A DNA stretch of 64,000 bases, taken from an uncultured archaeon. GTDB lineage: Archaea; Nanobdellota; Nanobdellia; Pacearchaeales; GW2011-AR1. The number at the start of each line of letters is the position of its first letter. Position 1 is the first letter of the stretch. Positions 8,296-49,419 of the stretch are shown piece by piece. The DNA lies in contig CAIKWG010000045.1 in NCBI GenBank assembly GCA_903831045.1, forward strand, positions 3,088-67,087. The letters run 5' to 3'. A program made the position numbers and the translations under genes. Under the pieces are notes generated by a model. The model had not been told where the DNA came from, searched no databases, and saw only the letters and a list, made by a program, of their open reading frames with translations.

Positions 8296-8359
8296 GGAGT
8301 TGTGGTTGCTGGACTCCTAGAACCCGCTGGAGGTTGTAGTTCAACTCCCATCGGGGCCA
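8296..8359 (+). ncRNA. tRNA-linked conserved element, copy 1 (core plus duplicated tRNA-Lys 3' end); function unknown
   Basis: 8339-8361 is an exact 23-nt repeat of 8257-8279. Core 8296-8338 is ~88% identical to 35371-35413. Candidate 8-bp hairpin 8317-8324/8332-8339 with a 7-nt loop. Confidence 0.4.
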
Positions 8360-8362
8360 TAA

Positions 8363-8370
8363 TTTTTTTT
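8363..8370 (+). terminator. Oligo-T run (T8) after the tRNA-Lys/element unit
   Basis: Eight consecutive T directly after the element. Archaeal RNAP commonly terminates at oligo-T. Confidence 0.4.
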
Positions 8371-35290: not shown

Positions 35291-35365
35291 GATCCTGTAG
35301 CTCAGCCTGGTTAGAGCGCTGCTCTGATACGGCAGAGGTCCACGGTTCAACTCCGTGCAGGATCA
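35291..35365 (+). tRNA. tRNA-Ile (anticodon GAU)
   Basis: Hand-folded: GATCCTG TA GCTC AGCCTGGTTA GAGC G CTGCT CTGATAC GGCAG AGGTC CACGG TTCAACT CCGTG CAGGATC A. Confidence 0.9.
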
Positions 35366-35370
35366 TTTCG

Positions 35371-35433
35371 GGAGTTGGGTTGCAGGACTCCAAGAACCCG
35401 CAGGTGGTTGTTGTTCAGCTCCGTGCAGGATCA
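35371..35433 (+). ncRNA. tRNA-linked conserved element, copy 2 (core plus duplicated tRNA-Ile 3' end); function unknown
   Basis: 35419-35435 exactly repeats 35351-35367. The core matches 8296-8338. Hairpin 35391-35398/35406-35413 carries a compensatory A:T where copy 1 has T:A. Confidence 0.4.
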
Positions 35434-35471
35434 TTGAAAAAACTTCTAAAACAAGTTTTTCCCGATAAAAA

Positions 35472-35483
35472 CCTTTAAAAACC
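35472..35483 (+). promoter_or_regulatory. TATA-like box upstream of rpl15e
   Basis: 'cctttaaaaacc' is centred about 26 nt upstream of the ATG at 35503. Confidence 0.4.
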
Positions 35484-35502
35484 AATTTTATCTCAAATAA
35501 AC

Positions 35503-36150
35503 ATGACAGAAAAAAAAGAAACTAAAAAGCCAGTAAAAAAAGTAGCTAAAGAAGTAGTTAAGGCAGCACCTCAAGCATCTGCAAGAGGGATGTACTATTA
35601 TATTAAGCAAGCTTGGAAAAAGCCGGATGATAAAACTCTTAGAGAAAGAATGATTGCATGGAGAGCTTCAGATGTGTTTACAAGAGTAGACAAACCATTA
35701 AGACTGGATAGGGCAAGAGCTTTAGGATACAAAGACAAAACTGGATATGTTGTAATAAGAGTAAGACTAAACAGAGGAGGACATGTTAGACCAAGACCAA
35801 ACAAAGGAAGAAGATCAAAAAGAATGCATACAAACAAGAATCTTAAGATGTCTTACCAATGGATTGCAGAACAAAGAGTTTCAAAAAAATTCACAAATTT
35901 AGAAGTATTAAATTCTTATCCTCTTGGAAAAGATGGAAAACATTATTTCTTCGAAGTTATATGTGTTGATCCTCAAAGACCAGAAATAAAAAATGATAAA
36001 ACAATAAACTGGATAACAAAACCTCAAAATCAAAATAGACCAGAAAGAGGAATTACAACTGCTGGTAAGAAATCAAGAGGATTGGAAAACAAGAGTCCAA
36101 CTTCAAAAGTAAGACCTTCAGTTAGAGCTGGTAAGGGTAGAGGAAAATAA
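35503..36150 (+). CDS. rpl15e: Ribosomal protein L15e
   Basis: 'YYYIKQAWKKP', 'RASDVFTRVDKPLRLDRARALGYK' and 'YVVIRVRLNRGG'. Confidence 0.9.
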   Translation: MTEKKETKKPVKKVAKEVVKAAPQASARGMYYYIKQAWKKPDDKTLRERMIAWRASDVFTRVDKPLRLDRARALGYKDKTGYVVIRVRLNRGGHVRPRPNKGRRSKRMHTNKNLKMSYQWIAEQRVSKKFTNLEVLNSYPLGKDGKHYFFEVICVDPQRPEIKNDKTINWITKPQNQNRPERGITTAGKKSRGLENKSPTSKVRPSVRAGKGRGK

Positions 36151-49301: not shown

Positions 49302-49419
49302 GCCCTGATAGCTCAGTTGGTTAGAGCGAACGGCTGTTAAGTCAGAGAAAAACTGACTCACAAGAAATTGTGATTTCGCAGCAACCGTTAGGTCGTAGGT
49401 TCGAGTCCTACTCGGGGCG
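49302..49419 (+). tRNA. tRNA-Asn (anticodon GUU) with 44-nt intron at canonical 37/38 position
   Basis: Exon 1 is 49302-49339 (GCCCTGA TA GCTC AGTTGGTTA GAGC G AACGG CTGTTA). The intron is 49340-49383. Exon 2 is 49384-49419 (A CCGTT AGGTC GTAGG TTCGAGT CCTAC TCGGGGC G). Confidence 0.85.

What the first reader, a model, noticed from the sequence alone, without database searches (positions are those of the whole stretch)
35291..35435. Second copy of the tRNA-linked element after tRNA-Ile: compensatory change supports a hairpin, with concerted changes in two GC(T/A)GG pentamers
Seen in sequence: 35419-35435 exactly repeats 35351-35367 (tRNA-Ile 3' T-stem strand, acceptor strand and 3 further nt). 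The 5 nt just upstream (35414-35418) extend the match with a single A-to-G change in the T-loop. Aligning the cores shows one 1-nt indel and five substitutions, all A<->T. Two of them are a compensatory pair within a candidate 8-bp hairpin with a 7-nt loop. Copy 1 has T8318:A8338 and copy 2 has A35392:T35412. The rest of the stem is C-G, A-T, G.G mismatch, A-T, A-T, C-G, C-G in both copies. Two more substitutions change the pentamer GCTGG to GCAGG at both of its occurrences (8308-8312 and 8326-8330 versus 35382-35386 and 35400-35404). One occurrence is upstream of the hairpin and the other is in its loop. Alternative mutually exclusive pairings for the 5' end exist: GGAGT/ACTCC locally, or GGAGTTG with CAACTCC/CAGCTCC in the duplicated T-loop. 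With only two copies, the structure is a hypothesis.
Basis: seen in the sequence. Interest (0 to 1): 0.6.

Follow-up and report, generated by a model that had tools for sequence, protein, structure and literature searches.

The report
Structured mini-repeat inserted behind tRNA-Ile
The stretch behind tRNA-Ile is one copy of an undescribed 33-41-base hairpin element of tiny symbiotic (DPANN) archaea. It spreads between genomes, supplies a ribosome-binding site when it sits in front of genes, and here is most likely a harmless insertion that duplicated the end of the tRNA gene.

Summary
The "core" (35378-35413) is one of three copies in this genome; the others follow tRNA-Lys and tRNA-Arg. It belongs to a family of 192 instances (147 distinct) in Pacearchaeota/Woesearchaeota-type genomes and metagenomes, with no Rfam match.

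The inner AACC/GGTT pairs never vary. The outer pairs occur as C:G, U:A, A:U and G:C. Subfamilies carry compensated insertions.

The "concerted pentamer" idea is wrong. Position 25 varies freely. The real partner of the first pentamer's W (position 7) is position 28, with U:A or A:U in 139 of 147 sequences.

The element is not tied to tRNAs. In 65 instances it ends so that its GGAGG lies 6-9 nt before a start codon (L11, S3Ae, aRF1, SRP54 and others). It also forms tandem arrays and lies inside tRNA introns.

Sister genomes show empty sites behind tRNA-Ile and tRNA-Lys. The Ile copy is therefore a 68-nt insertion made of a short spacer, an inverted copy of the T-loop, the element and a 22-nt target duplication.

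Best reading: a mobile, structured Shine-Dalgarno-bearing module, with the tRNA-linked copies as by-products. The mobility mechanism is unknown.

The parts
35291..35365 (+). tRNA-Ile(GAT), intact. Its T-loop-to-3'-end segment plus 2 flank nt (35346-35367, TTCAACTCCGTGCAGGATCATT) is the first copy of the direct repeat.
   Evidence: ARAGORN; Rfam RF00005 at 67 bits
35368..35370 (+). 3-nt spacer (TCG) between the first repeat copy and the inverted T-loop copy
   Evidence: Read from the sequence. The spacer is 17 nt at the Lys copy and 9 nt at the Arg copy.
35371..35377 (+). a' = GGAGTTG, the reverse complement of CAACTCC (T-loop plus the first CC of the T-stem). It can pair with the real tRNA's T-loop (15-nt loop) or with the downstream duplicate.
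   Evidence: At other loci it tracks each tRNA's own sequence: GGATTTG, GGAATCG, GGATTCG, GGAATTGAAC. An exact inverted run of at least 7 nt occurs in 33% of matched flank pairs against 4% of mismatched pairs.
35378..35387 (+). Element 5' arm GGTTGCAGGA (family consensus GG-N-TGC-W-GGA). Position 7 is A35384.
   Evidence: Conserved in all 147 distinct family members
35388..35390 (+). Linker CTC, which varies from 0 to 8 nt across the family
35391..35398 (+). 5' strand of the hairpin stem, CAAGAACC
   Evidence: Covariation counts
35399..35405 (+). 7-nt loop CGCAGGT (consensus CGC-N-GG-W). Position 28 is T35405, the partner of A35384. With the next GG it reads GGTGG here, a spoiled Shine-Dalgarno; most copies in front of genes read GGAGG.
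   Evidence: 7:28 is U:A in 103 and A:U in 36 of 147 sequences, with no T:T. A28 to T28 is 62:3 before ORFs against 82:43 elsewhere, p = 1.7e-6.
35406..35413 (+). 3' strand of the hairpin stem, GGTTGTTG
35414..35435 (+). Second copy of the tRNA-Ile T-loop-to-3'-end segment (TTCAGCTCCGTGCAGGATCATT; one A-to-G change in the T-loop). It acts as a target-site duplication.
   Evidence: The same-genus genome G142 has the tRNA followed directly by the L15e promoter, with no duplicate.
35436..35461 (+). Inverted repeat GAAAAAACTT..AAGTTTTTC ending in a T-run. It is the likely terminator of the tRNA-Ile transcript, which would then include the element as its 3' trailer.
   Evidence: Read from the sequence. 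Inference only; not tested.
8296..8361 (+). Sister copy behind tRNA-Lys(CTT): a' GGAGTTG 8296-8302, element 8304-8339, 22-nt duplicate 8340-8361, then T8 at 8363-8370
   Evidence: Empty sites in 7 of 8 same-genus genomes, where the T-run follows the tRNA directly.

Best explanation
Positions 35378-35413 are one copy of a small structured repeat family (33-41 nt, called E here) of Pacearchaeota/Woesearchaeota-type DPANN archaea.

**Anatomy (shown).**
- A conserved single-stranded 5' arm, GG-N-TGC-W7-GGA.
- A variable linker.
- A 7-12-bp hairpin whose four inner pairs (AACC/GGTT) never vary and whose outer pairs covary.
- A conserved 7-nt loop, CGC-N-GG-W28.
- One long-range Watson-Crick pair, W7:W28. 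It would stack on the top of the stem and gives an H-type pseudoknot topology.

**How it works (inferred).**
- E is a duplicative, horizontally spreading module. Its 3' shoulder (G26-G30, GGAGG) serves as the Shine-Dalgarno sequence when E ends 0-3 nt before a start codon.
- The stem then occupies the spacer between the Shine-Dalgarno sequence and the start codon. The fold can therefore set or gate ribosome access.

**The tRNA-Ile copy.**
- It is a by-product of the element's spread, not a tRNA accessory.
- A 68-nt insertion (spacer, inverted T-loop copy a', E, and a 22-nt duplicate of the tRNA 3' end) landed in the 3' flank of an intact tRNA gene.
- tRNA 3' flanks are a general insertion hot spot in this genus.
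- The copy carries the GGTGG variant, has no ORF behind it, and is probably just transcribed as a 3' trailer.

**Origin of the flanks.** The signature [a b] s a' E [a b] is most simply explained by a mechanism that copies the target itself, such as replication template switching around the hairpin. An element that brings its own attachment site explains it less well. This last step is the least certain.
For: **Family and structure.**
- There are three copies in the genome, each behind a tRNA with its own duplicate.
- The family has 192 instances, 147 of them distinct.
- Covariation: 14:36 occurs as UA 29, CG 19, AU 14 and GC 6. 15:35 occurs as AU 35, UA 31, CG 4 and GC 3. 0 of 500 shuffles reach the observed covariation score.
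- The G.G mismatch becomes A:U or G:C in other subfamilies, and 39-mers carry a compensated A/T insertion.
- 7:28 is U:A or A:U in 139 of 147 sequences. The metagenome search pattern left both positions free to be A or T, yet T:T occurs 0 times and A:A 4 times.

**Shine-Dalgarno use.**
- 65 instances precede an ORF start. In 61 of these, G30 lies 6-9 nt from the start codon, which is ATG in 61.
- GGAGG against GGTGG is 62:3 before ORFs and 82:43 elsewhere, p = 1.7e-6.
- Genes behind E include L11, S3Ae, aRF1, aIF2-beta, EF-1-beta and SRP54 (Pfam), and they recur across contigs.

**Mobility.**
- E occurs in 33 of 401 genomes of the class and in 3 of 23 genomes of the genus.
- Copies 34-36/36 identical occur in genomes whose aRF1, S3Ae and L11 proteins are only 45-56% identical to those of this genome.
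- E also forms tandem arrays and lies antisense inside tRNA introns.

**Insertion.**
- Empty sites exist for tRNA-Ile (G142) and tRNA-Lys (7 of 8 genomes).
- Other inserts with duplicates occupy the same sites in sister genomes.
- A flanking direct repeat of at least 10 nt occurs in 68% of tRNA-linked copies against 3% of controls.
- a' tracks the first 6-10 nt of the duplicate wherever that duplicate starts. The same signature occurs at the 5' end of a protein gene.
Against: - An RNA-level role is therefore inferred only.
- G.U and A.C counts in the stem are 26 against 21, so there is no strand-specific signal that would separate RNA from single-stranded DNA structure.
- The hairpin is not thermodynamically exceptional.
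- No TATA-like motif sits at a fixed distance from E.
- E precedes L11 in only 2-3 of 23 E-positive genomes. It is not a conserved regulon element.
- Six of eight intron copies are antisense, which an RNA function cannot explain.
- No enzyme for mobility was found. Y1 transposase shows no association.
- The 7:28 pair has no helix around it. Its neighbours G8/G27 cannot pair.
Confidence: 0.55

Rival explanations
1. E is a purely selfish DNA repeat of the REP/BIME or MITE type. The hairpin and the 7:28 contact are read on single-stranded DNA by a transposase acting in trans. The GGAGG and its spacing to start codons only reflect where insertions are tolerated or targeted.
For: - Distribution is patchy even within the genus.
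- Near-identical copies occur in distant genomes.
- E forms tandem arrays and occurs antisense in tRNA introns.
- Target duplications flank it.
- G.U and A.C counts in the stem show no strand bias.
- From general knowledge: IS200/IS605 and REP systems do read a hairpin together with nucleotides 5' of it.
Against: - All 65 ORF-linked copies are in sense orientation with spacing of mostly 6-9 nt, and they are strongly enriched for GGAGG over GGTGG.
- Y1 transposase (PF01797) is present in 3 of 10 E-positive and 3 of 10 E-negative genomes tested.
- No E-like hairpin lies next to the genome's own Y1 gene.
- Copy number is 1-14 per genome, not hundreds.
- E has no terminal inverted repeats of its own, and the duplication length varies from 8 to 35 nt.
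Confidence: 0.2
2. The tRNA-Ile block is an att scar. An integrative element crossed over in the T-loop, as tyrosine-recombinase elements do, or entered as a folded single-stranded hairpin site a'-E-a in the manner of CTX-phi or integron attC. It brought its own copy of the tRNA 3' end and has since been deleted down to about 46 nt.
For: - A direct repeat running from the T-loop to just past the 3' end is the classical signature of T-loop-crossing integrases (Williams 2002, as cited in PMC9897764).
- Strand exchange between a folded a':a stem and the tRNA T-loop would produce exactly the order a b s a' E a b. This is my own derivation.
- Sister genomes carry other inserts of 50-210 nt with duplicates of 9-40 nt at the same tRNAs.
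- The conserved AAC/GTT triplets with covarying outer pairs resemble attC R boxes (general knowledge).
Against: - No integrase or any ORF lies between the repeats, and no kilobase-scale version was found in the loci held.
- At least 15 different tRNA species carry E with their own cognate duplicate and a'.
- The duplicate can start in the T-stem, the acceptor stem or the anticodon arm, or in a protein gene, and a' follows it each time. An element would therefore need a separate lineage for each target.
- The junction lies after the whole stem, not at the GTT.
- No real matches were found in 2.9 million viral contigs.
Confidence: 0.12
3. One reading: a tRNA-linked functional RNA. On this view E plus the duplicated 3' end is a structured trailer that acts on the tRNA, for example in processing, stability or decoy pairing.
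For: - The orientation is always the same as the tRNA in 25 of 26 3'-flank copies.
- The T-run terminator follows the second copy, so the block is probably co-transcribed.
- a' can pair with the real tRNA's T-loop, forming a hairpin with a 15-29-nt loop. This resembles the P0 hairpin that precedes E in other subfamilies.
Against: - 20 of 23 genomes of the genus have no E at all. One sister genome shows the empty tRNA-Ile site and 7 of 8 show the empty tRNA-Lys site.
- Most E copies are not next to tRNAs.
- The same tRNA flanks hold unrelated inserts in sister genomes.
- The duplicate decays: A to G here, and worse elsewhere.
Confidence: 0.08

Closest known systems
Small structured intergenic repeats of bacteria (REP/BIME with RAYT transposases, pneumococcal BOX and RUP, neisserial Correia/NEMIS, ERIC)
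   Same: - Short, multi-copy and hairpin-forming.
- Intergenic, often in tandem or modular arrays.
- Co-transcribed with neighbouring genes and able to alter their expression.
- Patchy across related genomes.
   Different: - Only 1-14 copies per genome.
- Strict sense orientation and 6-9-nt spacing to start codons, with the Shine-Dalgarno sequence inside the element.
- An isolated long-range covarying pair.
- Direct plus inverted duplication of the target.
- No association with a Y1/RAYT gene.
- The host is archaeal (DPANN).
attL/attR tRNA gene fragments left by integrative elements (Reiter 1989; Williams 2002; reviewed in PMC9897764)
   Same: An intact tRNA gene is followed by a partial copy that runs from the T-loop to just beyond the 3' end.
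   Different: - The insert is 46-60 nt instead of kilobases.
- There is no integrase.
- An inverted copy of the start of the duplicate lies on the other side of the insert.
- The same insert occurs at many different tRNAs and in 5' leaders.
Minimal Shine-Dalgarno-gating RNA folds, such as the 34-nt preQ1-I riboswitch (an H-type pseudoknot) and RNA thermometers
   Same: - Size of 33-41 nt.
- A hairpin whose 3' shoulder holds the Shine-Dalgarno sequence directly before the start codon.
- Conserved loop and tail nucleotides joined by a long-range pair in pseudoknot topology.
   Different: - No sequence or Rfam match.
- The second 'stem' is a single covarying pair.
- The downstream genes are diverse.
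- Copies are mobile and often lie where there is nothing to regulate.
- No ligand or protein partner is known.
Folded single-stranded recombination sites (integron attC, CTX-phi attP)
   Same: A hairpin with conserved AAC/GTT triplets and covarying outer pairs. Folded-hairpin recombination would give the observed order a b s a' E a b.
   Different: - There is one box, not two, and a 7-nt loop.
- The junction is not at G/TT.
- No IntI-like gene was examined or found.
- The targets are too varied for a pre-formed site.

Membership tests
Rfam families (any described RNA family) | A match to a curated covariance model | tested here: not met
   In the window only tRNAs reach the gathering score. 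No credible hit at E up to 10 over 35360-35520. No hit at E up to 1 in six loci of the 33-35-nt subfamily.
REP/RAYT (REPIN) system | Co-occurrence of the repeat with a RAYT/Y1 (IS200-type) transposase gene | tested here: not met
   PF01797 is present in 3 of 10 E-positive and 3 of 10 E-negative genomes. The E-rich genomes G116 and G114 have none. No E-like hairpin lies beside the genome's own Y1 gene on C50. These are incomplete MAGs, so absence is weak evidence.
REP/RAYT (REPIN) system | High copy number, with copies typically in inverted pairs | tested here: not met
   There are 1-14 copies per genome. Arrays are direct repeats, not inverted.
MITE | Terminal inverted repeats belonging to the element, and a target-site duplication of fixed length | tested here: not met
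   The 36-mer has no terminal inverted repeats. The flanking inverted repeat is copied from each target. Duplications range from 8 to 35 nt and are absent from 95% of ORF-linked copies.
att scar of a tRNA-integrating element | A direct repeat covering the 3' part of the tRNA gene | tested here: met
   22-23 nt at the Ile, Lys and Arg copies. A repeat of at least 10 nt occurs in 68% of tRNA-linked copies.
att scar of a tRNA-integrating element | An integrase gene or element body between the repeats, or a full-length relative elsewhere | tested here: not met
   Only 46 nt lie between the repeats. No distant repeat of any tRNA 3' end exists in the genome or in the loci held. Viral contigs gave only chance hits.
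Archaeal BHB intron | A bulge-helix-bulge at both junctions, and an interrupted tRNA | tested here: not met
   The upstream tRNA is complete at 67 bits. By inspection, the sequence after the putative 5' site cannot pair with exon 2 to form the 4-bp central helix. No dedicated BHB search was run.
Riboswitch or cis-regulatory leader | A conserved structured element at a fixed position in 5' leaders, with covariation | tested here: met
   65 sense copies lie 6-9 nt before start codons. Covariation is shown.
Riboswitch or cis-regulatory leader | Presence in the transcript, and a ligand- or protein-dependent effect on expression | not testable with these tools
No TATA-like motif sits at a fixed distance.

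The most novel reading that the evidence does not exclude
E is a new kind of genetic element: a horizontally mobile 'ribosome-binding-site cassette'. On this reading it is a roughly 36-nt pseudoknotted RNA fold that carries its own Shine-Dalgarno sequence and converts leaderless or weakly led genes of DPANN archaea into strongly led or regulated ones. It would spread by a so far undescribed insertion route that copies the target both directly and in inverted orientation ([a b] s a' E [a b]).
Probability: 0.25. Interest if true: 0.8.

Novelty: new variant of a known kind. Interest (0 to 1): 0.62.

Why it matters
- **A lead into DPANN regulation.** DPANN archaea are uncultivated or barely cultivated, and almost nothing is known about their non-coding RNA or how they control translation. 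E is a compact element of 33-41 nt. It has unusually clean covariation, a defined long-range contact and a clear positional rule relative to start codons. It is therefore directly testable by probing and by reporter or cell-free translation assays.
- **A possible new mutational route.** Near-perfect identity between genomes whose essential proteins are only about 50% identical points to horizontal movement of a regulatory module without any gene. The flanks, a direct plus an inverted copy of the target, do not fit standard transposition or integration. They may reveal a mutational or mobility mechanism specific to these small genomes.
- **A practical point for annotation.** The partial tRNA copies beside E, and beside other mini-inserts in this genus, can be mis-annotated as tRNA genes or pseudogenes.

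Tried and rejected
1. **Concerted change of the two GCWGG pentamers.** Rejected. Position 25 varies independently, and 7 pairs with 28.
2. **Alternative helix G1-T4 with A18-C21.** Rejected. T3 changes to A or C without compensation.
3. **Alternative helix 5-9 with 20-24 (GCWGG/CCCGC).** Possible on paper, but position 22 does not covary with position 7.
4. **Local GGAGT/ACTCC pairing.** RNAfold prefers it in the two window copies. It is absent at the Arg copy and elsewhere.
5. **BHB intron reading of tRNA + insert + duplicate.** The upstream tRNA is complete, and by inspection no central helix can form.
6. **REP/RAYT link.** No association was found.
7. **Viral origin.** The three viral-contig hits are chance matches without the hairpin.
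8. **Long integrated elements bounded by the tRNA and E plus duplicate.** None was found.
9. **Complementarity or mimicry with 16S rRNA.** The loop region resembles both 16S termini, but I could not turn this into a test.
10. **E starting at the transcription start.** No TATA-like peak sits at a fixed distance.
11. **G.U against A.C bias as a test of RNA against DNA.** Uninformative at 26 against 21.
12. **Filled-versus-empty comparison for a 5'-leader copy in G307.** The downstream gene has no DNA-level orthologue in the genus.
14. **Chance hits from the loose genome-collection pattern.** It also hit GC-rich bacteria by chance. These were excluded because they lack the 5' arm and the stem.

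Full report
**1. The observation**

- tRNA-Ile(GAT) ends at 35365/35366.
- 35419-35435 repeats 35351-35367 exactly. With the five preceding bases (one A-to-G change) the duplicate covers 22 nt, from the T-loop to two bases past the discriminator.
- Those two bases are genomic flank, not CCA, so the copy was made from DNA.
- Between the two copies lie TCG, then GGAGTTG (35371-35377), then a 36-nt core (35378-35413).
- The core differs from the one behind tRNA-Lys (8304-8339) at positions 7, 15, 25, 28 and 35, all A<->T changes.
- A third copy, outside the window on contig C42, follows tRNA-Arg(CCT). It has that tRNA's own 22-nt duplicate and GGATTTG in place of GGAGTTG.

**2. It is a family**

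- A pattern search of 301 genomes of the order found the 36-mer in 10.
- A covariance model found relatives in 33 of 401 genomes of the class, but in only 3 of 23 genomes of the genus.
- A scan of one genome per species found it in MAGs labelled Pacearchaeota, Woesearchaeota and Nanoarchaeota.
- Together these gave 192 instances, 147 of them distinct.
- Nothing in Rfam matches.
- Three hits in viral contigs are chance matches.

**3. Anatomy**

All members share the same parts:
- a 5' arm, GG-N-TGC-W-GGA;
- a linker of 0-8 nt;
- a stem of 7-12 bp;
- a loop, CGC-N-GG-W.

The four pairs next to the loop (AACC/GGTT) never vary. The next pairs do vary.
- The G.G mismatch of the 36-mers is A:U or G:C in other subfamilies.
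- The 39-mers carry an extra A on one strand and an extra U on the other.

On 74 distinct sequences aligned to the model:
- 14:36 is UA 29, CG 19, AU 14, GC 6;
- 15:35 is AU 35, UA 31, CG 4, GC 3;
- 92.5% of cells pair, against 75.8% in shuffles;
- no shuffle in 500, and no slid register, approaches the covariation score.

That alignment is fitted to the model, which favours the structure. However, an ungapped count outward from the loop gives the same picture.

It is not unusually stable (z = +0.3 to +0.6), so the evidence is evolutionary and not energetic.

**4. The pentamers**

- Position 25, the W of the second GCWGG, is T, A, C or G, with no tie to position 7.
- Position 7 is tied to position 28, the last loop base: U:A 103, A:U 36, G:U 1, A:A 4, T:T 0, other 3.
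- The metagenome pattern allowed A or T independently at both positions, so this is not a search artefact.
- Both states occur with every stem type. Positions 7, 14/15, 28 and 35/36 interleave along the sequence, so recombination between subfamilies cannot explain the two couplings.

I read 7:28 as a direct base pair that stacks on the C21:G29 end of the stem, which is an H-type pseudoknot topology. Its neighbours never vary (C6, G8, G27, G29) and G8/G27 cannot pair, so no longer helix can be shown.

**5. Where the element sits**

- 65 instances lie directly before an ORF start.
- 25 lie 3' of a tRNA in the same orientation.
- 8 lie inside tRNA introns, 6 of them antisense.
- 15 lie inside tandem arrays.
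- The rest are mixed. Some are flanked by duplicates of a tRNA 5' end or of the 5' end of a protein gene.

For the ORF-linked copies:
- G30 lies 6-9 nt from the start codon in 61 of 65, and the codon is ATG in 61.
- G26-G30 therefore works as a Shine-Dalgarno sequence, and the 3' strand of the stem fills the spacer.
- GGAGG against GGTGG is 62:3 before ORFs and 82:43 elsewhere (p = 1.7e-6; instances are not fully independent).

The genes behind the element include L11 (five contigs), S3Ae (four), SRP54, PheRS-beta, aRF1, aIF2-beta, EF-1-beta and a presenilin-type peptidase.

In this genome the same genes have no E. They have promoters close to the ATG or a plain GGAG.

**6. Mobile or conserved?**

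- Copies 34-36/36 identical to the tRNA-Lys copy stand in front of genes whose products are only 45-56% identical to this genome's orthologues.
- The outer stem pairs are free to change elsewhere, so such identity points to recent horizontal spread.
- The patchy presence within the genus agrees with this.
- E precedes L11 in 2 of 23 E-positive genomes, plus one decayed copy. That is far above random expectation but far from a conserved regulon.
- In some genomes copies are identical and arrayed. In others (G114) they have diverged with compensation.

I conclude that E spreads by duplication and transfer, and that it is retained where its Shine-Dalgarno sequence is useful.

**7. The tRNA sites**

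- Sister genome G142 has tRNA-Ile followed at once by the L15e promoter.
- Seven of eight sister genomes have tRNA-Lys(CTT) followed at once by a T-run.
- In this genome the T-run follows the second copy.
- The Ile and Lys blocks are therefore insertions of 68 and 82 nt respectively.
- Other genomes of the genus carry unrelated inserts of 50-210 nt at the same two tRNAs, with duplicates of 9-40 nt.
- About ten other tRNAs of this genome do the same.

tRNA 3' ends are thus a general hot spot, and E is one of several passengers.

**8. The flank signature**

- A direct repeat of at least 10 nt flanks 68% of tRNA-linked copies, 5% of ORF-linked copies and 3% of control positions.
- Just 5' of E (0-3 nt away) there is often an inverted copy, a', of the first 6-10 nt of the duplicate.
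- a' follows the duplicate wherever it starts: in the T-loop, T-stem or acceptor stem, or in a coding region.
- Exact inverted runs of at least 7 nt occur in 33% of matched flank pairs and 4% of mismatched pairs.
- The order is [a b] s a' E [a b].

An element that carried its own attachment site would need a separate lineage for each target. A process that copies the target fits better, for example template switching around the hairpin during replication. That remains inference. Strand exchange with a folded a'-E-a hairpin would give the same order and cannot be excluded.

**9. What the Ile copy does**

Probably nothing for the tRNA.
- It has the GGTGG variant and no ORF behind it.
- Its duplicate has begun to decay.
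- It is absent from sister genomes.
- It is likely transcribed as a trailer up to the T-run after 35461. This was not tested.

**10. What could not be done**

There is therefore no transcript or population evidence.
- No mobility enzyme was identified. Y1 transposase shows no association.

**11.

I re-derived its claims independently. New here are:
- the 7:28 pair;
- the Shine-Dalgarno statistics;
- the subfamilies;
- the empty sites;
- the intron and antisense copies;
- the target-tracking inverted repeat.

Noticed in passing
Own genome, contigs C13, C14, C16, C42, C51, C55 (outside the window): About ten other tRNA genes (His, Val, Gln-TTG, Leu-CAA, Leu-AAG, Leu-TAG, Ser-TGA, Cys, Thr-TGT) are followed by short inserts, often with a partial duplicate of their own 3' end. 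Several inserts begin with an AGCGAAGTGAGAG-like motif. Many end in an xAACC-loop-GGTTx hairpin just before the duplicate.
   Followed up: partly
L114, L151-L153, L187, L202 and L158-L159 (33-41-nt family members, mostly 33-35 nt; other genomes): A second hairpin (P0) ends 0-4 nt before the element. Its 7-bp stem differs in sequence at almost every locus. Its 16-18-nt loop is conserved (..cGGAGGCAAaGAAAa). Together the two hairpins make a leader of about 75 nt with no Rfam match.
   Followed up: partly
L111, L149, L120 and others (other genomes): Copies of the element lie inside the introns of tRNA-Glu and tRNA-Arg(GCG), mostly antisense to the tRNA. They form the apical part of the intron.
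   Followed up: partly
L169, L222, L231, L262 (metagenome contigs): The element is followed, at Shine-Dalgarno distance, by a conserved 5-codon mini-ORF M(A/P)SYT-stop. A second copy of the mini-ORF and a short palindrome lie just upstream.
   Followed up: no
L185 5790-5835 and 6760-6800; also L117, L121, L136, L139, L186, L230: A shorter palindrome, xAACC(G)TAGGTTx, recurs next to the element and directly before start codons.
   Followed up: no
Own genome, contig C3 (16S rRNA termini): The loop region of the element (AACC-C-GC-N-GG-W-GG) resembles both ends of the organism's 16S rRNA: 5' GATCCTGCTGGCGG and 3' AACCTGCAGATGGATCA. This may be chance or mimicry.
   Followed up: partly
window 49302-49419: Rfam calls a third tRNA of 118 nt, presumably intron-bearing, that ARAGORN without intron search missed.
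   Followed up: no
window 35436-35461: The inverted repeat GAAAAAACTT..AAGTTTTTC lies between the tRNA-Ile duplicate and the L15e promoter. It looks like a palindrome built on the original T-rich flank seen in the sister genome G142.
   Followed up: no
L188 and L207 (metagenome contigs): The signature [a b] s a' E [a b] also occurs at the 5' end of a protein gene on the opposite strand. It comprises a 34-nt duplicate of the gene start and a 9-nt inverted copy. The orthologous site is occupied in a second contig by a different subfamily of the element.
   Followed up: partly
L103-L106 (same-genus loci behind tRNA-Ile): Runs of 100 N (withheld sequence) fall inside the repeated insert regions of several sister genomes. 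Those inserts could therefore not be read in full.
   Followed up: no
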